From NCBI GenBank assembly GCA_042218075.1, contig JBDGRK010000005.1, positions 68,716 to 132,715 of the forward strand: a stretch of 64,000 nucleotides of DNA, written 5' to 3'. The notes beneath the pieces were generated by a model. That model had not been told where the DNA came from and made no database searches. It worked only from the letters and a program-made list of their open reading frames with translations. Source of the stretch: Candidatus Nanohaloarchaea archaeon. GTDB taxonomy: Archaea > Nanohalarchaeota > Nanosalinia > Nanosalinales > Nanosalinaceae. The position numbers were made by a program, and so were the translations under genes. Position 1 is the first letter of the stretch. Each line of letters opens with the position of its first letter. Positions 1 to 59,072 of the stretch are shown here, in pieces.

Positions 1-1341
1 TCTGGATGCGTGGACTGTATCTCCCTGGAGGTAGACATCAAGCCAGAATGCTCCTCTTGTTCCTGTCTGGATATCTAGATCGGTTGGCTCACCGTTAATC
101 ACGTAATCGAAGCCATCCCCATCCCTGTAGTAGCTCTCCACCAGTGCCTTAGTGCCGTTTTCACCTCCTATCTCTTCATCGCCAGATATCATCAACACGG
201 CTCTACCGTCAAAGTTTGGATCTCTCCTGAGGTCGACGAATGCCTTCATCATGGCCGCCACCTCGGCCTTCATATCCGTTGCTCCACGGCCGTAAAGCTT
301 TCCATCCAGAACTGTGGGATCAAACGGATCAGTTACCTCCCAACCCACTCCAGGTTCAACAACATCGAGGTGACCGTTGAAGCAGACGGAAGTGCACCCG
401 TTTCCTATCTCGGCCGTGAGGCTCTTTACACCCTGGATGTCGTGTATATCTGATTTTATCCCGTTTTCCTGCAGGTAACGCTCCATAGTTCTGAAGATTT
501 CGGGATCCTTCACCGGGGAGACTGTCTCCTGGCCTATCAGCTCTTTCGCAACATCCACAATATCTCTATCATCGGTTTCAAGCTCTTCCTCTCTGACTCT
601 GCGCCCCTTGTAGCCTATCTTGTGGGAGTAGCCCTTGGTTGACATCACTATTGGATAGAAATCTTCTTCCGCCCTGAGTTCTTCTCCCTCTTTCCTGGCG
701 AAGACCTCTCCCTCTTCAACTTTCTCGAAGTTCCTTGCTGTGAACTCGTAACCCGATCCCTTTTCCTCTCCGAATATGCTGAAAATATCCGGGTCGCTGA
801 CCCTGTAGTCCGCGTCTATAACACCTTCAGCAGCGAGGAAGTTCACCATGATATCATATGCGTTCTCCGCGGCTTCCTCTGAACCCGGCTTGCCGCATTC
901 CACTGAGATACCTCTCATGTAGTTCATCATGGTCTCCGGCATCCAGGAAAGATCCACCGCTGTATCCAGTCCGGAGTTCTTGACCAGATCTAGATCCCTC
1001 GGATCTATGAAGAAACCGAAAGGCGTGGGCTCTGACTCTGTGGAGTGGAAGTCAAGAACTTTAAGACCCTCTACTTCCTCAAGCAGTTCCGCAGCTAGCC
1101 TCTCCTCGTGTACATCGCTTTCAGGGTCTCCCGGGAAGCATCTGTTCAGGTCTTTCTCGATGTACCTTTCCCCCTCTTCCCTTGCCTCTTCATTCGCCAG
1201 AATAAACTTTACCGCTTTCTTCAGCTCGTGTTCCGACCGCTTCAGCTTCCTCATCGCCTTCAATCCGCAGTCCTCCACGCCGTGAACACATGCTATAAGC
1301 GCGTACTCCGGCTTACCCTCACCGAGAATTTCCACCTTCAT
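1..1341 (-). CDS. Fusion of succinylglutamate desuccinylase/aspartoacylase-like (M14) domain and M20 (DapE/ArgE-like) peptidase; runs off left edge
   Basis: Missing from the ORF track because there is no stop in the window. Manual translation from ATG 1341, which overlaps the upstream TGA: MKVEILGEGKPEYALIACVHGVE...DLNRCFPG...DFHST (M14-like), continuing in frame into FNGHLDVV, LYGRGATDMK, GDEEIGG, NGEPT, HAS (M20 motifs). Confidence 0.82.
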   Translation of the reverse strand, partial: MKVEILGEGKPEYALIACVHGVEDCGLKAMRKLKRSEHELKKAVKFILANEEAREEGERYIEKDLNRCFPGDPESDVHEERLAAELLEEVEGLKVLDFHSTESEPTPFGFFIDPRDLDLVKNSGLDTAVDLSWMPETMMNYMRGISVECGKPGSEEAAENAYDIMVNFLAAEGVIDADYRVSDPDIFSIFGEEKGSGYEFTARNFEKVEEGEVFARKEGEELRAEEDFYPIVMSTKGYSHKIGYKGRRVREEELETDDRDIVDVAKELIGQETVSPVKDPEIFRTMERYLQENGIKSDIHDIQGVKSLTAEIGNGCTSVCFNGHLDVVEPGVGWEVTDPFDPTVLDGKLYGRGATDMKAEVAAMMKAFVDLRRDPNFDGRAVLMISGDEEIGGENGTKALVESYYRDGDGFDYVINGEPTDLDIQTGTRGAFWLDVYLQGDTVHASR

Positions 1342-3176
1342 CAGACTCTCGCACCCTGATTCTCGCCGTATTCAGTTGCCGGCATAAGCCCAAGGACATC
1401 CTCCAGATGCGCCTCAAGATCTCCAGCGTATGATGGAGCCATCGCCCCTGCTGTATCCATAACATCTGAATCGTACACATCCCTGTAAATATCCATCCAT
1501 TTTTCCTCTTCGTCAAGTCCAGGGAGGGTCTCAGGATCTGAAGGATCTAAACCTTCTACCTCTTTCTCGAAAGCCTGCCTGATCTTTTCACCGTGAGGCA
1601 TAACTGCTGCCTTTGCAAGAGCAACCTGGTACTCGTCATCGTAGTTCTGTCTCGAGACTCTGTACTCGAATCCTCCTGTAGCTGGCTTGGGCCTTACATC
1701 GTGGTGGATGCCCGCCATATGGGCGATTGAGACGTTTCGCTTGTGGTATTCGTCTTTTCTCTCTTCGTCCATTCCCTTGAGGTCAACCTTTCCTCTGACT
1801 CTCTCAAGTTCCGGTTCCTGATCTGAACCGGAATTAACCACCTTTGTGAATTCAATATCGCCGTCTTCAATATATTCCGCCGGTGTCTTGGCATCATCTG
1901 GACTGAGAGCGAGGAGTGTTACATCTTCCAGCTCTAACTCCTCATCTCCGTAAAACTCGACATATTCCTCGTCAGGAGGCAGGACCCAGACCATGTGATG
2001 CTCTGTCATGTAGTGATCCATCATGTTCTCGAACTCTCCCATTTCTCTCTCCTCATCCAGTAGCTTTTCAATGAGAGTCCAGGGTGTTCCGACCCTGTCT
2101 TGCTTGTCTTCTCCTTCAATCTCTGAAATCACGTGCTGTGCGTAAGTGTCATGCTCCCAGTATACCTGGTTGACTGCGGTCCTGGAGGTTTCTCCCTCGT
2201 ATTCAACCTTTGTGTTCGAACTTACCGTTTCAAGACCTCTCTCGAACAGCATCCTGTAAACAATCTCGTCTGAGATTCTCTGGTCCAGATCAAGGTTGCC
2301 GTTCTCATCCGCAAAAAGTCCTGAAGTCAACTGTGTCGAGCCGCCGAACATGTTAAGAGCGACCTTCGGCCCGAATATCGTGGCCATGTAGTCGAAGTAG
2401 TACGGAACATCGGTGAAATGATCAAAGTACTGGTTCAGGAATGCAAGAGCCTCATCCCTCTCCCATTCCTCCAATTTACCTCTTTTAATTACATCTCTTC
2501 CATCTGTCTCATCCGGAACTTCTTCAGGATCTGTGAACTGCGGCGTCAGTCCTTCTTCAGCGTATTCCAGGGCAGGGAACTCTCTTTCAAGGTAATTCTT
2601 CGTGCCCTCCTTGAAGCTTTCAAGTATAGCCAGCAGAAGACCGAACTCTCCATCTTCAGTGACTCTCACTGCTCCGGAATCTATCTCCTGCTGGGCCCCA
2701 AGATCGAAGTCAATTTCGGGCGTGGAAACCGCTATATCCTGGTCCGAGTCCTCAGTTAAGTCAAGTTTTAGAGCCGCAGGTTTCTGCCCGCCATGACCTT
2801 TCTCAACTACTTTATCCAGTTCAAACTCAAATTCCTCTCCGTATTCATCGGTTCTCTCTCTTAACTCCGAGTCTATCTCGCTCCAGAGCTCCTCGTTCAG
2901 AATCTGCTGATAAACAGGTGAAAGAGGCATCACTCCCTCCTCATTTAAAATCGGATTCTCGCTCTCAATACCGATTCCGACTCCTTCCGAGGAAGAGGCA
3001 TCGACATTCGAATTTTCCTCATAGTTCTCTTCCCAGTCCTCAACAGCACTTTCTCTAAAATCATCGTAAGAAAGGGTTTCCTCTACCTGATCATCTTCTT
3101 CAAGCATCTCTTCCACTGTTTCATTCTCCGAATCTCGGCTTTGAGATTCCGAAACATTTGCTTGTGAAACTGACAT
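1341..3176 (-). CDS. Large acidic hypothetical protein (~611 aa)
   Basis: Long ORF with halophilic D/E-rich composition; ATG 3176 preceded by SD AGGTGA (3181-3186); no family recognised. Confidence 0.75.
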   Translation of the reverse strand: MSVSQANVSESQSRDSENETVEEMLEEDDQVEETLSYDDFRESAVEDWEENYEENSNVDASSSEGVGIGIESENPILNEEGVMPLSPVYQQILNEELWSEIDSELRERTDEYGEEFEFELDKVVEKGHGGQKPAALKLDLTEDSDQDIAVSTPEIDFDLGAQQEIDSGAVRVTEDGEFGLLLAILESFKEGTKNYLEREFPALEYAEEGLTPQFTDPEEVPDETDGRDVIKRGKLEEWERDEALAFLNQYFDHFTDVPYYFDYMATIFGPKVALNMFGGSTQLTSGLFADENGNLDLDQRISDEIVYRMLFERGLETVSSNTKVEYEGETSRTAVNQVYWEHDTYAQHVISEIEGEDKQDRVGTPWTLIEKLLDEEREMGEFENMMDHYMTEHHMVWVLPPDEEYVEFYGDEELELEDVTLLALSPDDAKTPAEYIEDGDIEFTKVVNSGSDQEPELERVRGKVDLKGMDEERKDEYHKRNVSIAHMAGIHHDVRPKPATGGFEYRVSRQNYDDEYQVALAKAAVMPHGEKIRQAFEKEVEGLDPSDPETLPGLDEEEKWMDIYRDVYDSDVMDTAGAMAPSYAGDLEAHLEDVLGLMPATEYGENQGARV

Positions 3177-3265
3177 TGTATCACCTTTCAATTAGGAAGT
3201 GCAGAAAGAGCGAATTCTTTTCATGGAGGCCCGCCCTTTCAACACTCCGGGTCGATGGGCCCCCT

Positions 3266-3355
3266 TCAAACGACTAAAATAATCAGCAGGATAGCGATAC
3301 CGCTGACCAGATTCACTGATCCCGGTTCAAAGTTTTCGGCCAGCGTTTCTAACAT
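3266..3355 (-). CDS. Putative Ile/Leu/Val-rich leader peptide (MLETLAENFEPGSVNLVSGIAILLIILVV)
   Basis: ATG about 21 nt after a TTTAAAT TATA-like box; 9 of the last 10 codons are I/L/V; followed by alternative GC-rich helices overlapping the downstream SD. Confidence 0.6.
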   Translation of the reverse strand: MLETLAENFEPGSVNLVSGIAILLIILVV

Positions 3356-3424
3356 ATTTGATGCATCCACAGCAAACATTTAAATAAGGTTTGACAGTAT
3401 TTTATGATCCCGAAATAGTAATAG

Positions 3425-4471
3425 CTATCCGGACCCTGTCTCCTCAAGATACTCCTTTCCCTCAGTGCAGTTTTCTCCAAATTTTTCCAGGTCAGTGTTT
3501 GCGCCACAGAGAGGCACCGCGACCTTTCTTCCCTCCAGATTCATGCCTAAATCTCTGCTGAAAAGCACAGCTGACGCAGCAACTGCTCCCGCAGGTTCAG
3601 TAACGACCTTCTGTCTCTCCGCCAGCATAGCTACAGTCGCCTTCACCTGTTCATCGGAAACATAGACCACTTCGTCGACAAGTTCCCTCATGTGCCCGGC
3701 GGGAAGATCTCCTACCCTTCTCGTAGCTATACCTTTCGCAACTGTGTCGACTGAATCTCTCTCGTACACCTTCTCCCGGTTGATAGTCTGCTTCGCGGAA
3801 CCGCACCCCTCTGTCTGTACACCGACAACTCTTGAATCAGGATTCAGGTGCTTTACTGCCGTAGCGACTCCACTTATTAGACCGCCGCCGCCGATGGCCA
3901 CAAAAACAGTGTTGAGTTCCGGGAACTGTTCCACCATCTCTTTTCCCAGTGTTCCCTGCCCTGCTATAACACCCGGATCATTGTATGGATGGACGAAGGT
4001 TAATCCCTGCTCCTTTTCCAGCTTTCTCGCATATTTCTTCGACTCCTCGAACTCCTCTCCATGGAGAACCACATCAGCACCGTAGCCGGAAGTAGCCTCA
4101 ACCTTCGCATCCGGGGTGTTCTCCGGCATCACTATCGTGGCTTCAACACCAAGCTCTCTGGCGGCGAGAGCAACTCCCTGCGCGTGGTTTCCTGAAGAAG
4201 CTGCGATCACTCCCCTCTCCTTATCTTCCCCGGAGAGCCGGGAAATCTTGTTGTAAGCTCCTCTAAGCTTGAAGGCCCCGGTCCTCTGGAAGTTTTCCAT
4301 CTTGAAACCTACTTTATCAGCTCCGGATTTCTCGGCGAAGGTTCTGGAGAAATCCATCGGAGTTTTCTTCGCGATTCCCTCAAGCCTTTCAGCTGCTCCT
4401 TTTACAGAGCTGTAGCTCACCAGTTCTTCGGATTTTGAAGTTTTCAGCGTTGCGTGGTCGTGTTTTGTCAT
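3425..4471 (-). CDS. ilvA: Threonine ammonia-lyase (threonine dehydratase), short form without C-terminal ACT domain
   Basis: KMENFQRTGAFKLRGA PLP-lysine motif, ASSGNHAQGVA, GGGGLISG; ATG 4471 preceded by SD GAGGTG. Confidence 0.92.
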   Translation of the reverse strand: MTKHDHATLKTSKSEELVSYSSVKGAAERLEGIAKKTPMDFSRTFAEKSGADKVGFKMENFQRTGAFKLRGAYNKISRLSGEDKERGVIAASSGNHAQGVALAARELGVEATIVMPENTPDAKVEATSGYGADVVLHGEEFEESKKYARKLEKEQGLTFVHPYNDPGVIAGQGTLGKEMVEQFPELNTVFVAIGGGGLISGVATAVKHLNPDSRVVGVQTEGCGSAKQTINREKVYERDSVDTVAKGIATRRVGDLPAGHMRELVDEVVYVSDEQVKATVAMLAERQKVVTEPAGAVAASAVLFSRDLGMNLEGRKVAVPLCGANTDLEKFGENCTEGKEYLEETGSG

Positions 4472-4517
4472 TTTGCGAAGCACCTCTTGGAGAATAATCT
4501 AAGAGAAAGCTCGATTT

Positions 4518-4640
4518 CTACCCAATAATACCGATAATCGAAATGATGGAAATAGATCCAGAAACTTCAGAAAAATCAGATAGAGTTGGGACTCCCGAAA
4601 CTTTACTCAGATTCAGTAGACCGAAGGATAAAGCGTCCAC
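4518..4640 (-). CDS. Putative Ile-rich leader peptide of ilvA (MDALSFGLLNLSKVSGVPTLSDFSEVSGSISIISIIGIIG)
   Basis: GTG start 22 nt after TTTATAAT (leaderless position); 7 Ile in the last 11 codons and none before; stop 46 nt upstream of the ilvA ATG. Confidence 0.68.
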   Translation of the reverse strand: MDALSFGLLNLSKVSGVPTLSDFSEVSGSISIISIIGIIG

Positions 4641-4701
4641 CCTTCATTGACGAACTCACAGAATTATAAAGAGAAATAAGAATTTAAAAAGGGAAGGGAG
4701 A

Positions 4702-5469
4702 TTACATTCCCATAGTTCCCTGAGAATCGACCTCATCTGTTTCCGGAGTTCGGTCTCGAACATAGCTATCTATAGATGTTCCCGGCATGTAGCCTCTTGA
4801 TTTAATGTACTCCTCTCTGGCTTCAACTATAACTTCATCCGGTATCTCAACATCTCTTCGAGCTTCTGGAGCCCCATCATACCTGTTAGCGGTTACAGCA
4901 TAGCGAGTATCTCCTTCGAGAAGCTGGGTTATCTGCCACTCATGAACCGGATTGATATTGCTCCCAGTGACTTCCTCAAGAAAGTTCTCATCATCTATAT
5001 CCGTCTCCTGCGCCAAGACCCTTATCATCTCCAAATCGTCCACACCAAGATATTCCTCCTCTTCAGGCACTCTATCTCCATAGATCAGAGAATCCGGCAT
5101 CTCATCTTTATAGATGAAATCTCCTTCTCCCGGATCCCACCATCTCTGATCTCTCGGATCCTGTCTGAACTCTACAGTCTCAGCACCACGATTATCAGTG
5201 CCGCTCTGAGTTTGAGTTATCACACCTCCATCGGTTCTTGCTTCATAACCCTCTTCTTCAAACATGAATTCTGAGGCGGTTTCCATATCGCTTTTCTCTT
5301 CCATGATAGAATCGTGGGGATGTTCTGTACTTGTACCGGGATCCCGGCTTTTAGCTTCATTCGGATTTGTGGGCGGAGATTCATCATGAAGAATTTCATG
5401 AACCCTGATGCCTTCTCTGAGTCTTTCATCCAATTCTTCCCTATTCTTGTACTGAGACTTACCCATCAT
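4702..5469 (-). CDS. Acidic hypothetical protein
   Basis: 255-aa ORF with halophilic composition; SD GGAGGTGA upstream. Confidence 0.7.
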   Translation of the reverse strand: MMGKSQYKNREELDERLREGIRVHEILHDESPPTNPNEAKSRDPGTSTEHPHDSIMEEKSDMETASEFMFEEEGYEARTDGGVITQTQSGTDNRGAETVEFRQDPRDQRWWDPGEGDFIYKDEMPDSLIYGDRVPEEEEYLGVDDLEMIRVLAQETDIDDENFLEEVTGSNINPVHEWQITQLLEGDTRYAVTANRYDGAPEARRDVEIPDEVIVEAREEYIKSRGYMPGTSIDSYVRDRTPETDEVDSQGTMGM

Positions 5470-5546
5470 CTCTCACCTCCTTCTACAGCTGTTTCCACGG
5501 ATTTTGAGTCGCGTTGCGTATGTTGGGTTTGGTTGTAGTTTGTCAT
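5466..5546 (-). CDS. 26-aa small ORF (MTNYNQTQHTQRDSKSVETAVEGGER) translationally coupled to the downstream gene
   Basis: Strong SD GAGGTGA before ATG 5546; its TGA overlaps the next ATG (ATGA). Confidence 0.45.
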   Translation of the reverse strand: MTNYNQTQHTQRDSKSVETAVEGGER

Positions 5547-5594
5547 AGAGTGTTCACCTCGAAATTGAGAAACGAGAAATGAACACTGCGCTTT

Positions 5595-5708
5595 TTACAG
5601 CAGCAGTGCCAGCAGAATCAAAAGTAGCAGTGAAAGTCCAAGATCAATTGAATCGGAAATCGAGAAAATAGCTGGAGCTCGTTTATCGCAATTCCAGAAC
5701 GCGTCCAC
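5595..5708 (-). CDS. Putative Leu-rich leader peptide (MDAFWNCDKRAPAIFSISDSIDLGLSLLLLILLALLL)
   Basis: GTG start with the same GTG-GAC-GCN opening as the ilvA leader; 11 Leu in the last 15 codons; stop lies inside a hairpin that competes with an SD-sequestering helix. Confidence 0.6.
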   Translation of the reverse strand: MDAFWNCDKRAPAIFSISDSIDLGLSLLLLILLALLL

Positions 5709-5750
5709 CTATAGTTAATGGCTCCATACTATTTCCCGTTTAATCAGTCT

Positions 5751-6098
5751 TTATAAATTCTTGAGGTTGGCAGTCGCACTGTGATGTCTGTCTTTGCCAT
5801 GCGCAGGATGCCTGTCTATTTCAGAATTTAGCAATCTTTCCGCTTTATTCACCTTTTTGGCATCTTCAGGTTCAAGTTCTACATTTACATCTCTGAGTTT
5901 TATTTCAGCCAAATCCATCAAGTTATACATAGAATCAGAGGGTGTATCCTGGATAAGATCATTCAAATATTCAGCAGCTTCCTCCAGAGCGTCACTTTCA
6001 TATCTATCGGCAATAGTTTCGATGTCGGCAGTCGCTTCTCTGATATCGTCATATCTATCAAGAGCTTCCTTTGGGTAGACGACCATATTACTTATCAT
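5751..6098 (-). CDS. Hypothetical protein
   Basis: 115-aa acidic helical ORF. Confidence 0.6.
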   Translation of the reverse strand: MISNMVVYPKEALDRYDDIREATADIETIADRYESDALEEAAEYLNDLIQDTPSDSMYNLMDLAEIKLRDVNVELEPEDAKKVNKAERLLNSEIDRHPAHGKDRHHSATANLKNL

Positions 6099-6133
6099 TT
6101 CATACAGTTTTTAATACTTTTTGGTAACAACAA

Positions 6134-6823
6134 TCAGAACAATCCCTTCTTTTCTGTTTCTTCAATACCGTTATCTGTTATCTTGAACTGCTTTGACTTT
6201 CCCTCCGGCATCGAGCGGTGCTTCTCCACCTCTATCTCTCGAAGACCGCTATCGACTTTCGAAAGCTTCAGGAGACACTTCGACCAGTAGCGGGGAACAT
6301 CTCTCCCCACCAGCTCGATATCATCCTCGTCAAAGGAAGTGTAGACCTGGTTGGTGACAAGAGCAGGAATATCATTCTTCCTCGCCACCTTCGAAATCTC
6401 GGAGAGCTGCTGGGATAGCTTCTGGTTCATCTCCTGGACCTGGTCTCCCTGGGCCTGTAAGCGGTAGAGCGAAACCATCGAGTCAACTATAACTGCGGAA
6501 GCGTCTTCCTCCTCCGCTATCGATTCAAGAGAGTTGATAGCCTCCTGCTGCTGCCCGAAGTCGAGAGGCTCGTTTACCACCATGTTTTCCAGCGCTTCCT
6601 CAGAGGCGATCTGGCTGAACCGCTCCGCCGAAAAACCCTTCTCGGTATCGAGGTAGATGACCTTCTCGCCTTCCGAGGCCAGATGCGCCGCGACCTGGAC
6701 GCAGAAGTTGGTCTTCCCTGATCCCGACTCTCCGAATACATTGGTGATTATACCCTTCTCGAGCCCTCCTTTTAGGAAAGAGTCGATAGGCTCGCTTCCA
6801 GTAGATACACGTTCTACTTCCAC
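6134..6823 (-). CDS. radB: DNA repair and recombination protein RadB
   Basis: Walker A GESGSGKT, VIYLDTE, IVDS, NQVY, C-terminal KHR motif; lacks the RadA N-terminal domain. Confidence 0.92.
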   Translation of the reverse strand: MEVERVSTGSEPIDSFLKGGLEKGIITNVFGESGSGKTNFCVQVAAHLASEGEKVIYLDTEKGFSAERFSQIASEEALENMVVNEPLDFGQQQEAINSLESIAEEEDASAVIVDSMVSLYRLQAQGDQVQEMNQKLSQQLSEISKVARKNDIPALVTNQVYTSFDEDDIELVGRDVPRYWSKCLLKLSKVDSGLREIEVEKHRSMPEGKSKQFKITDNGIEETEKKGLF

Positions 6824-8454: not shown

Positions 8455-8805
8455 ATGTCCAAGGAAAAGGAGGCCTCGCTTCTCACCTACAACACTCACA
8501 GGGAAAAGTTCGAGTCCGTGTATGAAAGAAACAAGTTTTACCGCGGGCTATTCGGCTACACGCAAAAGGTGAAGAAAAACGGGAAGACCTACGAGTATGA
8601 GAAAGATGGACTGATGGACGAGATACCCAACTCAAGGATCGACGACTCTGTATTCATAATCGCAAACCACTACGTCACAAGAATCGAAGACTACTTCCAG
8701 GACTGGGGAGAAAAGGTCTCCCACCATATTTTCAAAGTCATAATCGAGGATAAGAACATCATCGAGCAGATAAGAGGAGATAATTATGAACGACAACAAC
8801 AATGA
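8455..8805 (+). CDS. Hypothetical protein (possible ferredoxin-like/Cas2-VapD-like fold)
   Basis: 116 aa; LLTYNT...SVFII strand pattern; overlaps the cdc48 start. Confidence 0.6.
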
Positions 8806-11800
8806 AGACGGAAGCAGGGCGAGGCTCCGAGTAGGAGAGGTACCGCCCAACGCACAGCAGGACATCGGAAAAGGCATAGTCAGGATAGACTCCAACGTGA
8901 TGGAGGAACTGGGAGTCTCGGAGGGTGATGCTGTAACAATAGAAGACGAGAGGGAAACCGTAGGAAGAGTCGCGAGAAGCTATCCCGCAGATAAAGGACT
9001 CGGTATCGCGAGAATGGACGGTTACATGAGAAAGAACGCAGGGACTTCTCTCGGACAGAAGGTAGAGGTTGAGAAAGCCGAGCTGAAAGAGGCTGAGAAA
9101 ATCACCCTCGCACCTGCAGAGGAAGGAGTGATGATCCAGGTCCAGAACCCGAAGATATTCCAGAGAGCTCTGAGAGGAAGGGCGGTGATGCAGGGCGACA
9201 TAGTAGTTCCGGGGGATGGAGACGATCGCAGAAAATCGATATTCGACGACGTATTCGACATGGAAGCCGATCGCTTCAGGTTCTCTTTCGGGCAGGAGAC
9301 GAAGCTGGCTGTGGTCGACACAAATCCAGGAGGAGCAGTAAAGATCACTGAAGCGACCGAGATAGAGGTCAAGCAGCAGGCAGTGGAAGACGTTGAAAAA
9401 CAGCAGGTGAGAGTACCGGAGGTAACCTACGAGGATATCGGAGGCCTCGAATCAGAGATACAGCAGGTCAGGGAGATGATCGAGCTGCCTCTAAAACACC
9501 CTGAAGTGTTCCAGCAGCTGGGGATCGAGGCTCCCTCAGGAGTACTGCTACACGGGCCTCCCGGCACCGGAAAAACTTTACTCGCGAAAGCGGTCGCAAA
9601 CGAGGCGGATGCCACATTCATGTCCATCAACGGTCCGGAGATCATGAGCAAATTCTACGGAGAATCCGAGAAACAGCTCAGAGAAAAGTTTGAGGAGGCG
9701 CAGGACAACTCTCCCGCGATAATCTTCATAGACGAGATCGACGCAATCGCCTCAAAGAGAAGCGATGTAGGAGGCGAGGTGGAGAGAAGGGTTGTGGCGC
9801 AGCTTCTTTCCCTCATGGATGGACTCGAGGAGCGCGAAAACGTTATCGTGATAGCCGCGACAAACAGGCTTGACGCTATTGACGAAGCCTTGAGAAGGGG
9901 AGGAAGATTCGACAGGGAGATCGAGATCGGTGTCCCGAACAGGGAAGGTAGAAAGGAAGTGCTCCAGATTCACACCAGAAACATGCCCCTGACAGACGAC
10001 GTCGACCTTGAAGAAGTCGCGGAGAAAACCCACGGCTATGTCGGGGCTGACATAGAGGCGATGGCGAAAGAAGCCGCGATGAGTGTTCTGAGGAGAGTTC
10101 TCCCCGAGATAGACCTCGACGAGGAGATACCTAGCGACGTGATGGACGAATTAGTAGTTGATCGGGATGCAATGCTCGAAGGAATAAGAAAGGTCCAGCC
10201 CTCAGCGATGAGAGAGGTCATGGTCGAAGTTCCGCAGGTCACCTGGGAAGAAGTCGGAGGACTGGAGAACACGAAGGAACAGCTAAGAGAGATGGTGGAA
10301 TGGCCGCAGAAGTACCCTGAAAGGTTCGAGAAGATGGGTATAGAGGTTCCTAAAGGAATACTTCTCTACGGTCTGCCGGGAACAGGAAAGACTTTACTCG
10401 CAAAGGCTGTCGCGAACGAGGCGAACGCCAACTTTATCTCCATAAAGGGGCCTGAAATTTTCTGCCTGTCCGGAGATACACCTATAGTCACAGATTTCTG
10501 CGGTAGAAGGTCAATCGAGGAGTTCTACGATAGAGCGGTTGAAATTAGTGAAAAAGTCCATAAGGATGATAGAAAGACAGTCTTCGAACCTGAGGAAGAG
10601 ATCAGGACGAAAGGCATCGACGAGAATGGAGAAATAGTTGATTCCAAGGTCGATCGGTTCTACAGCATAGAGGTGCCCAAAAGTTACAGGCTGGAGTTTG
10701 ATGATGGCAGTTCCATCCATGTATCCGGCAACCAGCCTTTCTATACGTCAGAAGGGTGGAAGAAAGCTTCAGAAATAGAAGAGAAAGAAATGGTGGCATC
10801 GCCTTCACGGATAGACTCCTTCGGGAAGGATCGGATTGAATGGGAGCAACTTGACCGGGAGAACTTCCACATTCAGAAAGAAGGAGAACTGGTAGCTCTA
10901 GGCGATACAGAAGTAGAGGAAATGAATCATATCACTTATGCTAGGAAACTAACTTCGGAGGAGAAAACTATACGGATACCGGAGGAACTTAATCCTTCGC
11001 TTTCAGAACTACTGGGATTTATCTCGGCGGAGGGAAGCCTTAAAGAAGACGAGGTAAGGATAGCAGCGAGTGATGAGGACAACAGATCAAGAATAAGAGA
11101 GCTGCTGGAGGAAATATTTGAGGAAGAAAGGATAAATGAGAGAGAAGACGGTTTAGCTGTTTACTCCAGAGCATTTGTAGAACTTCTGCATCAAGGTTTC
11201 GATATTCCAAGAGAGGATAAAACAGCAAATATCAGAGTGCCAGGACTGCTCTTCAAGGCTTCCGAGAAGAACTGGAACGGATTCCTTAAGGGAGCTTTCA
11301 GGGGGGACGGCTACATAGGCGAGAAAAAAGTGGATTACTGCTCGAAGAGCGAGGAACTTGTCGATGGAATATCGACACTGTTAAGGTTCAAGGGATTCAC
11401 TCCGAGAAAGTTTGAAGACGGAGAAGGCTACTTCCACGTCAACCTAAGCGGTAAAGGCGAGATAACAAGGTTCAGGTCGGAAGTGATGGGAGAGGAGATA
11501 GAGATTAAAGAAGACAACAGGAACAAGCAGAGACCGATGCCAGACATGCGAGAGGAGGTAGAAGAGCTTAGGGATAACCTCAGGATGACCTACGGCAGAG
11601 ATATCAAGGAGGGAGTTATAGCACCCATTATCGAGAGAGAGCAGGAATTCGGGCAGGATAGGGCCAGAAAACTCGTGAATGCTTTCAGGGAGAGAACCAA
11701 AGAAGTTGAAGAATTAGAGATTGAGGAAACAATAGGGAGCCTGAGAGAGGCGAAAGATGTGCTGAAAGTTACTTGGCCTGAACTGGAAATGGAACTCGGT

Positions 11801-12673
11801 TACAATCCAAAATACCAGCTGAACGGGAAAAATGAATACGGGGAGAAACACGAAGAGATCAGAGAATACCTGGAAAAAGTGAGGGAATCAATCCTATCGG
11901 ACCGAAACTTCGAGACCCTACAGAAGCTTGACACCGCATCCAGAGATCTCGCATGGAAACAAATTGAATCAATTGAACAAAAGGGAGAAACCACGATGTA
12001 CGACCTTGAAACCTCGACAGGTAGCCTCATAGGCGGACAAACGCCTCTGATGCTTCACAATTCCAAGTATGTTGGAGAGTCAGAGGAAGCGGTGAGAGAG
12101 GTCTTCCAGAAAGCAAGGCAGGTAGCGCCGTGCATACTCTTCATAGACGAGATCGATTCTATAGCAACGAAGAGAGGATCCAGAACAGATTCAGGAGTCG
12201 GAGACAGAGTTGTCAACCAGCTTTTGACAGAGCTCGACGGAATAGAGGATCTGGAAGGAGTTACCGTGATCGCCGCGACGAATCGGCCCGACCTGATCGA
12301 TCCCGCTCTCCTGAGGCCGGGAAGAATAGACAGAGATATTGAGGTTGAAAACCCTGACCTGGAAGCCAGGAGGAAGATCCTGAAAGTTCACACGAGGGAC
12401 ATGCCGCTCTCCGATGAAATAGATCTCGATGCTCTGGCTGAGAAGATAGACGCCTACGTTGGTAGCGACATCGAGTCTCTCTGCAGGGAGGCCGCGATGC
12501 TCGCACTTAGAGAAGATCCGGACTCGGAAGAAGTGAAGATGGAGCATTTCGAGGAAGCTATGGAAGAGATCAACCCGACCGCCACAGAGGAAAACGTCGA
12601 GCACTACAGGCAGATGATGAAAAGGATGAAAGAAATGGAAGAACCTGATGAAAGCCCGGATTACTACGCCTGA
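8786..12673 (+). CDS. cdc48: CDC48/VCP (VAT) family AAA+ ATPase containing an intein
   Basis: N-domain plus two AAA modules ([16 protein letters not shown]; IFIDEID; RPGR); D2 interrupted by a 533-aa insertion. Confidence 0.93.
10463..12061 (+). mobile_element. Intein with LAGLIDADG homing endonuclease
   Basis: Begins CLSGDT, ends LMLHN followed by Ser(+1); LAGLIDADG-like blocks LLGFISAEG and [10 protein letters not shown]; removal restores [13 protein letters not shown]. Confidence 0.92.
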
Positions 12674-58941: not shown

Positions 58942-59049
58942 CTATTTCCAGTTAAACTTGGTTCCTGTAAACTTCAGAAAGAACTTCTTGGATACTTCAG
59001 CAGCTGTCGGGATTGATACAGTAACCGAATTCAGGACAGCTGCTCGCAT
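58942..59049 (-). CDS. Putative Lys/Phe-rich leader peptide (MRAAVLNSVTVSIPTAAEVSKKFFLKFTGTKFNWK)
   Basis: ATG about 23 nt after a TTAAATA TATA-like box; 5 Lys and 4 Phe in the last 15 codons; stop lies inside a 9-bp hairpin. Confidence 0.55.
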   Translation of the reverse strand: MRAAVLNSVTVSIPTAAEVSKKFFLKFTGTKFNWK

Positions 59050-59072
59050 ATTAATTTTCATTTAGCTAAAAT

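What the first reader, a model, noticed from the sequence alone, without database searches (positions are those of the whole stretch)
3176..5760. Cluster of amino-acid-sensing leader peptides: candidate archaeal translational attenuation system
Seen: three consecutive minus-strand transcription units each begin with an unannotated 29-40 codon ORF whose 3' end is a run of one amino acid class: Ile/Leu/Val (3266-3355), Ile (4518-4640) and Leu (5595-5708). Each is followed by overlapping alternative helices, one of which buries the downstream GAGGTG/AGGTGA SD. All three frames contain GTG-GAY-GCN at or near the 5' end. A fourth example lies at 58942-59049. Established: codon-run leader peptides are the hallmark of bacterial ribosome-mediated attenuation (ilvGMEDA, leu, thr). 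I know of few characterised archaeal cases and none in DPANN. Inference: this symbiont senses branched-chain amino acid supply by ribosome stalling and switches translation through SD sequestration, with no U-tract terminator after the leaders.
Basis: partly seen in the sequence, partly recalled or inferred. Interest (0 to 1): 0.92.

Follow-up and report, generated by a model that had tools for sequence, protein, structure and literature searches.

The report
Codon-specified amino-acid-sensing archaeal leaders
The three small reading frames belong to a conserved leader system of salt-loving archaea in which one codon, placed after a fixed 12-base cassette, names the amino acid of the downstream tRNA-charging or biosynthesis gene, a gene switch that my literature searches did not find described.

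Summary
The fourth does not fit. The shared GTG-GAY-GC is the core of a 12-base cassette, GGTGGAYGCKTT and variants. It gave 142 hits in 46 of 50 genomes of the family, against 5 hits for the reversed control.

In the frame GGT-GGA-YGC-KTT the cassette lies in a short ORF that starts about 30 nt after a TATA box, so the ORF is probably leaderless. The next codon, X, matches the downstream gene. All 36 tRNA-synthetase genes behind the 118 kept sites carried their cognate codon. Ile sits before threonine dehydratase, Leu before LeuA, and Trp before TrpE, TrpB and TrpD.

In ThrRS leaders it stays open up to the gene's start in 20 of 20 cases, usually ending in a stop/start overlap. Frame 0 does so in 0 of 20 and frame +2 in 4 of 20.

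Best reading: a ribosome reads X. When its charged tRNA is scarce the ribosome shifts +1 and carries translation into the gene. This is inferred, not shown. The Ile and Leu runs are a conserved extra layer found only in the Ile and Leu classes.

A Thr version sits before ThrRS in Halobacteria (73 of 301 genomes). My searches found no prior description.

The parts
5750..5757 (-). TATA box of the Leu leader (TTTATAAA), invariant in 8 orthologous loci
   Evidence: It starts 30 nt before the ATG at 5727, the spacing that is typical across the family (peak at 29-32 nt).
5683..5727 (-). Frame-0 mini-ORF of the Leu leader (MEPLTIGGRVLELR, then stop); probably leaderless
   Evidence: (site 2).
5698..5709 (-). 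Cassette GGTGGACGCGTT: an SD-like GGTGG, three bases, then the codon GTT
   Evidence: GGTGG is complementary to the 16S 3' end found in contig C28.
5695..5697 (-). Specifier codon CTG (Leu)
   Evidence: 43 L-class sites carry CTG or CTA at this position.
5583..5609 (-). Hairpin 1. The 5' arm is the last Leu codons and the ORF's stop codon lies in the loop.
   Evidence: (8 pairs, 3 with double changes).
5554..5582 (-). Hairpin 2. Its 3' arm holds the SD GAGGTGA of the next small ORF.
   Evidence: (SD paired in 12 of 13 orthologues).
5466..5546 (-). Third small ORF (MTNYNQTQHTQRDSKSVETAVEGGER). It is CA-rich, contains the box TCAAAATCC, and its stop overlaps the ATG of the main gene.
4702..5469 (-). 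Regulated gene of the Leu leader: a 255-aa acidic protein of unknown family
   Evidence: no Pfam match.
4682..4689 (-). Probable TATA box of the Ile leader (TTTTAAAT), 30 nt before the GTG at 4659
   Evidence: assigned from spacing; inference.
4603..4659 (-). Frame-0 mini-ORF of the Ile leader (VSSSMKGGRFILRSTESE, then stop)
   Evidence: site 3. Orthologues read MSSATKGGRFI and MSSAMKGGRFI.
4630..4641 (-). Cassette GGTGGACGCTTT
4627..4629 (-). Specifier codon ATC (Ile)
   Evidence: 4 of 4 threonine dehydratase loci carry ATC or ATT here.
   Evidence: 10 of 11 I-class +1 peptides end Ile-rich.
3425..4471 (-). Regulated gene of the Ile leader: threonine ammonia-lyase (PLP enzyme)
3266..3355 (-). 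Third leader ORF (MLETLAENFEPGSVNLVSGIAILLIILVV). It has no intact cassette and its ATG lies 29 nt after TTTAAA (3379-3384). Its tail codons pair with the SD of the next gene in the predicted fold.
   Evidence: z -2.42. It was not found at DNA level in 31 relatives.
1341..3176 (-). Gene behind the third leader: a 611-aa acidic protein of unknown family. In other genomes its homologues carry a Leu cassette.
   Evidence: 5 L-class sites.

Best explanation
The elements are translated sensors of charged-tRNA supply, built from a reusable cassette.

Shown:
- A TATA box lies about 30 nt before a short ORF, so its mRNA is probably leaderless.
- That ORF reads GGT-G(G/A)N-YRY-(TTT, GTT, ATT, CCY)-X and stops 2 to 15 codons later.
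- X is a codon for the amino acid that the downstream gene charges or makes.
- The frame one base to the right starts at the GTG inside the cassette. It stays open, and in the tRNA-synthetase classes it stops on or within a few bases of the gene's start codon, often as ATGA.

Inferred mechanism:
- The ribosome loads at the 5' AUG.
- When X is in the A site, the SD-like GGTG(G/A) lies five bases upstream of the P-site codon and can pair with the 16S 3' end, holding the ribosome there.
- If charged tRNA for X is plentiful, the ribosome reads on and stops early. The gene, which has little or no SD of its own, is then not translated from this mRNA.
- If that tRNA is scarce, the peptidyl-tRNA on the slippery U-ending codon slips one base forward.
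- The ribosome then translates the +1 ORF up to the gene's start and re-initiates there, switching the gene on.

Several cassettes in series (Val, Ile and Leu) give OR logic. In the Ile and Leu classes the +1 ORF also ends in a run of the same codons. That run forms one arm of a hairpin just before an SD-hiding hairpin, a second attenuator-like layer whose direction of effect is unresolved.
For: Specificity:
- Among 118 kept cassette sites, 36 have a tRNA-synthetase gene downstream, and X is cognate in 36 of 36: Gly 2, His 2, Lys 1, Pro 7, Ser 6, Thr 6, Val 7, Trp 2, Tyr 3 (annotations).
- Further matches: Phe before PheRS and Tyr before TyrRS in G000; Cys before CysRS 3 times and His before HisRS in other families; Ile before threonine dehydratase 4 of 4; Leu before LeuA; Trp before TrpE, TrpB and TrpD.
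- In an unbiased ThrRS set, 20 of 30 loci have a cassette, and X is Thr in 20 of 20 through three synonymous codons.

Enrichment:
- 142 hits against 5 for the reversed control in 50 genomes.
- About 205 against 4 in 70 genomes of the class.

Frame 0 is translated:
- An upstream in-frame ATG without an intervening stop occurs in 118 of 118 kept sites, against 9 and 7 of 118 in the other frames.
- TATA-like hexamers peak 29-32 nt before that ATG.

The +1 frame is used:
- In ThrRS leaders it is open from the cassette to the gene's start in 20 of 20. Frames 0 and +2 are open in 0 and 4 of 20, and shuffles give a mean chance of 0.27.
- In synthetase-type sites it is open in 30 of 35, against 0 and 6 of 35.
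- An ATGA or GTGA overlap occurs in many classes.

The cassette is a nucleotide unit:
- Neither encoded peptide is conserved: GGRF, GGCV, GESV, GDCI, GGHP.
- GGTG, the YRY triplet and a U-ending P-site codon are kept.
- TTT followed by C, which would be perfectly slippery, is avoided: 1 of 58 sites whose X starts with C.
- Each X in a multi-sensor leader has its own full cassette.
- TTT is the minor Phe codon, at a fraction of 0.31.

Precedent: the Atkins 2016 review (PMC5009743; passages read) says no natural use of hungry-codon frameshifting is known.
Against: - No RNA, ribosome-profiling or protein data exist for any of these organisms, and one search listed no RNA run.
- The GTG inside the cassette is kept in every variant seen. 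Internal initiation at GTG could therefore feed the +1 ORF without any frameshift.
- In two loci the +1 frame has its own ATG instead (G003; L052).
- The SD-like element is 5 bases from the P-site codon, a spacing like that of initiation. It is not the very short spacing of the prfB shift site (recalled), so no forward strain can be argued from analogy.
- GTT followed by C re-pairs poorly in the +1 frame.
- In the Ile and Leu classes the +1 ORF stops 35-130 nt before the next ORF and contains runs of the very amino acid that is scarce. Those runs would stall a shifted ribosome.
- In Halobacteria the +1 stop lies within 12 nt of the ThrRS start in only 2 of 20 loci. Open frames mean little in such GC-rich DNA.
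- Sites are phylogenetically related, so raw counts overstate independence. The independent evidence is the number of different gene families, at least 11 synthetases.
Confidence: 0.5

Rival explanations
1. Stalling without frameshift. The frame-0 ribosome pauses at X when its tRNA is scarce. The pause alone changes the fate of the message, through RNA refolding, protection from termination or decay, or control of access to the GTG inside the cassette. The +1 ORF is started independently at that GTG and couples to the gene.
For: - GTG is kept in all cassette variants.
- In W-type loci a 240-400 aa protein begins exactly at this GTG.
- Two loci replace it with an ATG in the +1 frame.
- A short helix starts right after X in ThrRS leaders (seen by eye).
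- Halobacterial leaders have a covarying helix that hides the 5' AUG and the cassette.
Against: - A ribosome stalled with X in the A site covers the GTG 10 nt upstream. Stalling should therefore block the +1 ORF and give the wrong sign for synthetase and biosynthesis genes.
- There is no SD at a usable distance before the GTG.
- Each X needs its own 12-base cassette, which plain stalling would not require.
- No consensus structure beyond a 5-pair hairpin was found in 20 ThrRS leaders, and no long-range helix.
Confidence: 0.25
2. The reader's model is the main mechanism for the window's elements. The Ile, Leu or ILV codon runs at the end of the small ORFs are the sensors. A ribosome stalled on the run remodels the hairpins and frees the SD, or prevents termination.
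For: - The runs are conserved: 10 of 11 I-class +1 peptides end Ile-rich, and 26 L-class loci picked by eye end Leu-rich, with synonymous codon variation.
- The run forms the 5' arm of a covarying hairpin.
- The next SD is paired in 12 of 13 orthologues.
- In the third element the tail codons pair directly with the SD.
Against: - The runs are absent from all synthetase-class leaders, which share the cassette and the specificity.
- The run ORF has no start signal of its own other than the cassette GTG.
- In the Leu element, melting hairpin 1 should lengthen the SD-hiding hairpin, which is the wrong direction (reading).
- Single-sequence energies are not above shuffles for two of three elements.
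- No T-run terminator was flagged.
Confidence: 0.1
3. A T-box-like riboswitch. Uncharged tRNA binds the leader RNA directly, its anticodon pairing with X and its 3' end with the GGTGG element, without translation.
For: - The logic is that of T-boxes: one specifier triplet per gene, on synthetase and biosynthesis genes.
- The cassette core loosely resembles the T-box core (recalled, not tested).
Against: - No Rfam family, T-box included, matches 8 leader loci at E up to 1 or the window at gathering score.
- X lies only 7 bases after GGTGG, too close for the two ends of one tRNA.
- 118 of 118 kept sites have an in-frame ATG at TATA distance.
- X varies among synonymous codons.
- Variants have GGTGA or GGTGT, which cannot pair with a CCA end.
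- No conserved stem I-like structure was found.
Confidence: 0.04
4. The small ORFs encode small hydrophobic membrane peptides, or are chance ORFs, and the cassette is a DNA site for a transcription factor.
For: - The tails are hydrophobic.
- The cassette lies close to promoters.
Against: - A DNA site does not explain a triplet that tracks the amino acid of 14 different gene classes.
- It does not explain the frame-specific ATG or the open +1 frame ending at start codons.
- The peptide sequences between start and tail are not conserved.
- Most +1 ORFs have no hydrophobic tail.
Confidence: 0.03

Closest known systems
T-box riboswitches of Gram-positive bacteria
   Same: It is a regulon-wide leader system on tRNA-synthetase and amino-acid biosynthesis genes. 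One specifier triplet in each leader names the amino acid, and a shared conserved sequence element accompanies it.
   Different: Here the triplet lies in a translated, probably leaderless ORF. There is no stem I, antiterminator or Rfam match. The system is archaeal.
Ribosome-mediated attenuation by leader peptides (thr, leu, ilv, his, trp, phe operons of bacteria)
   Same: A short leader ORF carries codons for the regulated amino acid, and sensing is by the translating ribosome. In the Ile and Leu classes there are codon runs and hairpins after the ORF.
   Different: - There is usually a single sensing codon, always preceded by a conserved 12-base cassette.
- An overlapping +1 ORF ends at the gene's start.
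- There is no hairpin-plus-T-run terminator.
- The targets are mainly synthetase genes.
- No Rfam leader family matches.
Autoregulatory +1 frameshifting of bacterial release factor 2 (prfB) and of antizyme
   Same: An SD-like element lies upstream of a slippery P-site codon, followed by a slowly decoded A-site codon. The shift frequency reports the supply of the factor that decodes that codon. The early frame-0 stop gives the off state.
   Different: - The slow codon is a sense codon that differs from gene to gene.
- The product of the shift is a coupling ORF rather than the protein itself, except in Trp-class fusions.
- The SD-like spacing is 5 bases, not the very short prfB spacing (recalled).
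- Frameshifting here is inferred, not shown.
Hungry-codon frameshifting in starved E. coli (Gallant and Lindsley; cited in PMC8211752 and PMC5009743)
   Same: An empty A site at a codon whose charged tRNA is scarce lets the P-site tRNA slip.
   Different: It is known as an error phenomenon. The Atkins 2016 review states that no natural utilised example is known (passage read). Here it would be a conserved regulatory device.

Membership tests
T-box riboswitch (Rfam RF00230) | Match to the covariance model (stem I with specifier loop, T-box or antiterminator) | tested here: not met
   There was no match at gathering score in the window. There was none at E up to 1 in 8 leader loci.
T-box riboswitch (Rfam RF00230) | The specifier triplet matches the amino acid of the regulated gene | tested here: met
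   36 of 36 synthetase sites.
T-box riboswitch (Rfam RF00230) | Acts as untranslated RNA that binds tRNA | not testable with these tools
   The frame-specific ATG at TATA distance argues for translation. tRNA binding was not tested.
Bacterial leader-peptide attenuators | A short translated ORF with regulatory codons for the controlled amino acid | tested here: met
Bacterial leader-peptide attenuators | Tandem or clustered regulatory codons | tested here: inconclusive
   Synthetase classes have a single codon. The Ile and Leu classes have runs, but in the +1 ORF. Some Cys leaders are Cys-rich in frame 0.
Bacterial leader-peptide attenuators | Alternative hairpins ending in an intrinsic terminator (hairpin plus T run) | tested here: not met
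   The scan flagged no terminator-like site at the leaders' hairpins. Hairpin 1 is followed only by a pyrimidine-rich stretch.
Bacterial leader-peptide attenuators | Match to the Rfam leader families | tested here: not met
prfB-type programmed +1 frameshift site | An SD-like element complementary to the 16S 3' end, upstream of the shift codon | tested here: met
   GGTGG or GGTGA pairs with the ...GGATCACCTCC end found in G000 contig C28. It is kept in all variants.
prfB-type programmed +1 frameshift site | Very short spacing between the SD-like element and the P-site codon | tested here: not met
   The spacing is 5 bases from GGTG to the P-site codon. The prfB spacing is recalled, not taken from a call.
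prfB-type programmed +1 frameshift site | A slippery P-site codon, a slow A-site codon and an early frame-0 stop | tested here: inconclusive
   TTT, CCC and CCT fit, but GTT before C fits poorly. The frame-0 stop lies 18-75 nt after the cassette. Slowness of X is inferred.
prfB-type programmed +1 frameshift site | Ribosomes actually change frame | not testable with these tools
   No RNA or ribosome data are available.
Translational coupling by overlapping stop and start | The stop of the upstream ORF overlaps or abuts the start of the downstream gene | tested here: met
   - ThrRS: the +1 stop lies 0 to 8 nt from the ATG in 20 of 20, and as ATGA in 11.
- Many other classes behave the same way.
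- In the window, the third small ORF overlaps the main gene as ATGA.

The most novel reading that the evidence does not exclude
This is a natural regulon built on hungry-codon +1 ribosomal frameshifting. A portable 12-base cassette plus one exchangeable codon turns the charging level of any chosen tRNA into translation of the gene behind it. The shift feeds a coupling ORF. Cassettes can be chained, in one frame as OR gates (Val, Ile, Leu) or in successive frames as cascades (the two-step Pro leaders).

It would be the first utilised hungry-codon frameshift, the first regulatory +1 frameshift shown in Archaea, and the functional counterpart in halophilic archaea of the bacterial T-box regulon.
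Probability: 0.5. Interest if true: 0.97.

Novelty: new variant of a known kind. Interest (0 to 1): 0.93.

Why it matters
How archaea match tRNA-synthetase and amino-acid supply genes to demand is largely unknown. Bacteria use T-boxes and attenuators, and eukaryotes use Gcn2 with uORFs.

These data show a sequence-defined, amino-acid-specific leader system. It covers at least 11 synthetase genes and Trp, Leu and Ile pathway genes in Nanohaloarchaea. It also covers ThrRS in about a quarter of the sampled Halobacteria, some of which are cultivated. The open question therefore becomes directly testable with reporters.

The system also gives annotators a rule. The specifier codon predicts which amino acid an unknown downstream gene is tied to. 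Examples are the acidic 255-aa and 611-aa proteins of this window, tied to Leu and branched-chain supply, and an N-acyl-amino-acid salvage operon tied to Trp.

If the frameshift reading holds, it is a compact programmable sensor of tRNA charging.

Tried and rejected
- Rfam: there was no family in the window at gathering score. At E up to 1 on 8 leader loci the only match was an unrelated tRNA. There are no tRNA genes in the window.
- T-box reading: rejected for the reasons given under rivals.
- Expression data: no RNA holder was listed for window 3100-6200.
- Consensus folding of 20 ThrRS leaders gave only a 5-pair hairpin inside the cassette. A variable hairpin just before the CAAAACC box is visible by eye but was not aligned well enough to count.
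- A long-range helix between cassette and downstream leader was not found in Nanohaloarchaeal ThrRS leaders: mean z +0.37 and 0 of 20 below -2. It is present in Halobacteria.
- The CAAAACC box occurs in 63 of 118 leaders against 12 of 118 control stretches. I first took it for an RNA partner of the cassette. Cassette-less ThrRS genes keep it directly before a TATA-like box about 21 nt from the ATG, so it is more likely part of the gene's own promoter. In the Leu and Ile leaders a similar box lies inside the third small ORF with no TATA after it. This is unresolved.
- Terminator scan: nothing was flagged at the leader hairpins.
- The 16S rRNA family search on G000 found nothing. The 3' end was found by a word search instead.
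- A loose architecture scan of G000 gave 28 hits, most of them inside genes. Its reversed-genome control (0 hits) is not a fair control because reversed DNA has no long ORFs. Only the hits confirmed by annotation were used.
- The second half of script (I-class folds) crashed and was not repeated.
- Rows dropped: of 140 parsed pattern sites, 118 were kept. The rule was a frame-0 start codon upstream without a stop, and a frame-0 stop within 75 nt. Thirteen sites had no such ORF; most of these lie inside genes such as EF-2. Five were removed by hand as in-gene or very long (numbers 49, 74, 115, 118, 122). The rest failed the 75-nt rule. One edge site (G041 C12) was not fetched.
- Papers: search listings showed nothing describing this system. 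Passages only were read from PMC8211752, PMC5009743 and PMC10117724. Supplements were not seen and may list uORFs of Haloferax.
- Structure, complex and atlas tools were not used.

Full report
**1. The observation**

- ORF 5595..5708 reads MDAFWNCDKRAPAIFSISDSIDLGLSLLLLILLALLL.
- ORF 4518..4640 reads MDALSFGLLNLSKVSGVPTLSDFSEVSGSISIISIIGIIG.
- ORF 3266..3355 reads MLETLAENFEPGSVNLVSGIAILLIILVV.

They precede, in turn, a 255-aa acidic protein, a threonine ammonia-lyase and a 611-aa acidic protein.

The fourth ORF (58942..59061) has no run and no GTGGAYGC. I drop it.

The window has no Rfam match at gathering score and no tRNA gene.

**2. Conservation**

The window lies in a 1.1-Mb genome, G000. 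Its ThrRS relatives carry names such as Nanohaloarchaea, Nanosalina and Nanohalobium.

In G012, a different genus, the same order is found:
- a small ORF MDAFW...LLLLL;
- a small ORF ...SKTVETAVEGG;
- an acidic gene;
- a small ORF MDALS...IISIIAIIG;
- threonine dehydratase.

A DNA search showed that the stretch around the Leu ORF is the best-conserved DNA of the region, at 73-82% identity in seven further genomes.

The alignment shows these invariant features:
- TTTATAAA;
- an ATG about 23 nt after the end of that box;
- GGTGGAYGCGTTCTG;
- a hairpin around the stop of the Leu ORF;
- the SD and start of a second small ORF.

**3. The cassette**

GGTGGAYGCKTT occurs 8 times in G000.

Read as GGT-GGA-YGC-KTT, each intergenic copy has an in-frame start a few codons upstream and a stop a few codons downstream. 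The codon after the cassette tracks the gene behind it:

| Codon after cassette | Gene behind it |
|---|---|
| ACC | ThrRS |
| GTT | ValRS |
| TCC | SerRS |
| CCA | ProRS |
| ATC | threonine dehydratase |

Across 50 genomes of the family the pattern has 142 hits, against 5 for the reversed control. I fetched the sites and parsed 140 of them. I kept 118; the rule and the dropped rows are given under Tried and rejected.

Downstream genes were clustered, annotated with NCBIfam and assigned by BLAST to the annotated references. The results:
- 36 kept sites have a synthetase gene downstream, and all 36 carry the cognate codon: Gly 2, His 2, Lys 1, Pro 7, Ser 6, Thr 6, Val 7, Trp 2, Tyr 3.
- Trp codons also precede TrpE, TrpB and an operon of an unknown 244-aa protein, an M20 deacylase and an N-acylamino-acid racemase-like enzyme.
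- Leu codons precede LeuA, a class I glutamine amidotransferase, homologues of the window's 611-aa protein and varied acidic proteins.
- Ile codons precede threonine dehydratase (4 sites) and unassigned proteins.
- Pattern hits inside genes such as EF-2 have no mini-ORF and serve as negative examples.

Relaxed scans of G000 added TTC before PheRS alpha and TAC before TyrRS.

In two other families of the class the same rule holds:
- TGT precedes CysRS (3 loci);
- CAT precedes HisRS;
- ACC precedes ThrRS (3 loci);
- TCC precedes SerRS (3 loci);
- TGG precedes a TrpD ORF that is fused in the +1 frame.

**4. Frame 0 is a real, probably leaderless ORF**

An upstream in-frame ATG with no stop is present in 118 of 118 kept sites. 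In the other two frames the counts are 9 and 7 of 118. Note that the keeping rule already demanded some start codon in frame 0.

TATA-like hexamers pile up 29-32 nt before the nearest such ATG. 58 of 114 sites have one within 26-36 nt under a narrow expression. This puts the transcript start at or next to the ATG, as in leaderless archaeal mRNAs (established knowledge).

In the window:
- the Leu leader has TTTATAAA 30 nt before the ATG at 5727;
- the Ile leader has TTTTAAAT 30 nt before the GTG at 4659;
- the third element has TTTAAA 29 nt before the ATG at 3355.

It also leaves its GTGGATGC outside the transcript.

**5.

From the cassette, frame 0 stops after 18-75 nt. The +1 frame (G-GTG-GAY-GCK-TTx) runs on.

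In an unbiased set of 30 ThrRS loci, 20 have a cassette. In those 20:
- X is Thr, as ACC 15 times, ACT 4 times and ACA once;
- the +1 frame is open up to the gene in all 20, with its stop 0-8 nt from the ATG and an ATGA overlap in 11.

Frames 0 and +2 are open in 0 and 4 of the 20. Shuffled leaders give a mean chance of 0.27.

Among 35 synthetase-type sites of the pattern set, the +1 frame is open to within 12 nt of the start in 30. Frames 0 and +2 manage 0 and 6.

The ten cassette-less ThrRS loci have short open stretches there, with a median near 27 nt.

In Trp-class loci the +1 frame simply continues as a long protein.

**6. The cassette is a nucleotide-level unit**

Variants read GGT-G(G/A/T)N, then CGC, CGT, TGC, TGT, CAC, CAT, TAC or TAT, then TTT, GTT, ATT, GTC, CCC or CCT, then X. 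Neither the frame-0 peptide nor the +1 peptide is conserved.

Three features are kept.
- **An SD-like GGTG(G/A).** It is complementary to the 16S 3' end found in G000 and lies five bases before the P-site codon.
- **A pyrimidine-purine-pyrimidine triplet.**
- **A U-ending or homopyrimidine P-site codon.**

The ninth base is G almost only when X starts with C: G-C 57 sites against T-C 1 site. TTT followed by C, which would re-pair perfectly one base on, is therefore avoided. TTT is the minor Phe codon (0.31), while the X codons are ordinary ones.

Leaders can chain cassettes:
- Val, Ile and Leu sit in one mini-ORF at 18-nt period in G000 contig C36, just outside the window.
- Ile and Leu sit together in many loci.
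- In Pro leaders a first, degenerate cassette has a +1 frame that is frame 0 of a second cassette.

**7. Mechanism**

Shown: codon specificity, the frame architecture, the promoter spacing and the coupling geometry.

Inferred: ribosomes load at the 5' AUG. When the charged tRNA for X is short they move into the +1 frame and carry translation to the gene's start, where they re-initiate. This gives the right sign for synthetase and biosynthesis genes. It also explains why every X needs its own cassette and why the +1 frame is kept open.

Weak points:
- The conserved GTG leaves internal initiation possible.
- The SD-like spacing resembles initiation rather than the prfB site.
- GTT before C re-pairs poorly in the +1 frame.
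- There is a complete lack of RNA or protein data.

I put this reading at 0.5. Stalling without frameshift gets 0.25.

**8. The runs and helices of the window's elements**

Runs occur only in the Ile and Leu classes.
- 10 of 11 I-class +1 peptides end Ile-rich.
- 26 L-class loci picked by eye end Leu-rich.
- No synthetase class has a run.

In the Leu element the last Leu codons form the 5' arm of hairpin 1 (5583-5609), with the stop codon in the loop. It has 8 pairs, 3 of them with double changes.

Hairpin 2 (5554-5582) pairs the SD of the third small ORF, and does so in 12 of 13 orthologues. The stop of that third ORF overlaps the main ATG.

A ribosome stalled on the run would free the 3' arm of hairpin 1. 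That arm can extend hairpin 2, which would be repression. A ribosome reaching the stop abuts hairpin 2 but does not clearly open it. I therefore cannot say which way this layer works.

Single-sequence energies are unremarkable for the Leu and Ile tails and notable for the third element, whose tail codons pair with the next SD.

**9. Reach beyond DPANN**

ThrRS of these genomes is 60-69% identical to ThrRS of Halobacteria. Several haloarchaeal ThrRS genes carry ATG-GCA or ATG-GTA, then GGT-G(A/G/T)C-YGY-TTT-ACA upstream.

In 301 evenly drawn Halobacteria genomes, 73 have exactly one hit to ATGNNNGGTGNNYGYTTTAC. None has a reversed-control hit.

All 20 fetched hits lie 66-179 nt before a ThrRS gene.

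There the +1 stop is mostly 13-43 nt past the ATG, and lies within 12 nt in only 2 of 20. Open frames are weak evidence in GC-rich DNA.

These leaders also have a covarying helix between the 5' AUG plus cassette and a segment about 40 nt downstream: mean z -2.2, with 14 of 20 below -2. The Nanohaloarchaeal ThrRS leaders lack it.

**10. Novelty**

Eight literature searches returned nothing describing this cassette or codon rule.
- The 2016 recoding review says no natural utilised hungry-codon frameshift is known (PMC5009743; passage).
- A Haloferax small-proteome paper notes 5'-UTR small ORFs in general terms only (PMC10117724; passage).

**11. Verdict**

Noticed in passing
window 8786-12673 (+): The 1295-aa CDC48/VCP-like AAA ATPase ORF carries a long insertion between its ATPase motifs. 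The insertion begins CLSGDTPIV and ends HNS, which looks like an intein.
   Followed up: no
L292-L311 (Halobacteria ThrRS leaders): The leaderless AUG plus cassette pairs with a complementary CACCUACC-like segment about 40 nt downstream, with compensatory changes between lineages. This helix would hide the 5' start codon. It is absent from Nanohaloarchaeal ThrRS leaders.
   Followed up: partly
window 5466-5546 (-) and 4420-4471 (-); loci: A CA-rich module, ATGACAACACACAAC...ACGCA...TCAAAAYC, recurs. It appears either as a separate 26-30 codon ORF (MTTHN...) coupled by ATGA to the main gene, or as the first ~17 codons of threonine dehydratase. Its function is unknown; it may be an unstructured translation enhancer.
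   Followed up: partly
leaders: The box CAAAACC is enriched (63 of 118 leaders against 12 of 118 controls). In ThrRS loci without a cassette it sits directly before a TATA-like box about 21 nt from the ATG. Cassette-bearing genes may therefore keep a second promoter of their own inside the leader.
   Followed up: partly
L198, L204, L205 (another family of the class): Cys-class leaders upstream of a Nudix-like gene combine the cassette (X = TGC) with a frame-0 peptide very rich in Cys and Gly-Asp, for example MKGGRVCRGGDDDESCGCGDGCGCC. In these, the codon run is in frame 0.
   Followed up: no
G000 C10:47700-50830 (L158): A Trp cassette heads an operon of an unknown 244-aa protein that starts at the cassette's GTG, an M20 (ArgE/DapE-type) deacylase and an o-succinylbenzoate-synthase or N-acylamino-acid-racemase-like enzyme. 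This suggests salvage of an aromatic amino acid from N-acyl forms.
   Followed up: partly
window 3425-4471 (-): The threonine dehydratase is patchy among relatives. Close matches occur only in G000 and G012 among 31 genomes, with more distant PLP enzymes elsewhere. Wherever it was seen it carries the Ile leader.
   Followed up: partly
G000 C40:12843-13042 (L034): ProRS has two Pro cassettes in tandem about 190 nt apart. A 72-codon ORF lies between the second cassette and ProRS in the +1 frame. A tRNA gene lies just downstream of ProRS.
   Followed up: partly
G000 contig C28, near one end: The 3' end of a 16S rRNA gene is present (word search). The archaeal SSU covariance model found no match in the genome. 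The rRNA gene may be fragmentary or interrupted in this assembly.
   Followed up: no
It has none of the leader features.
   Followed up: yes
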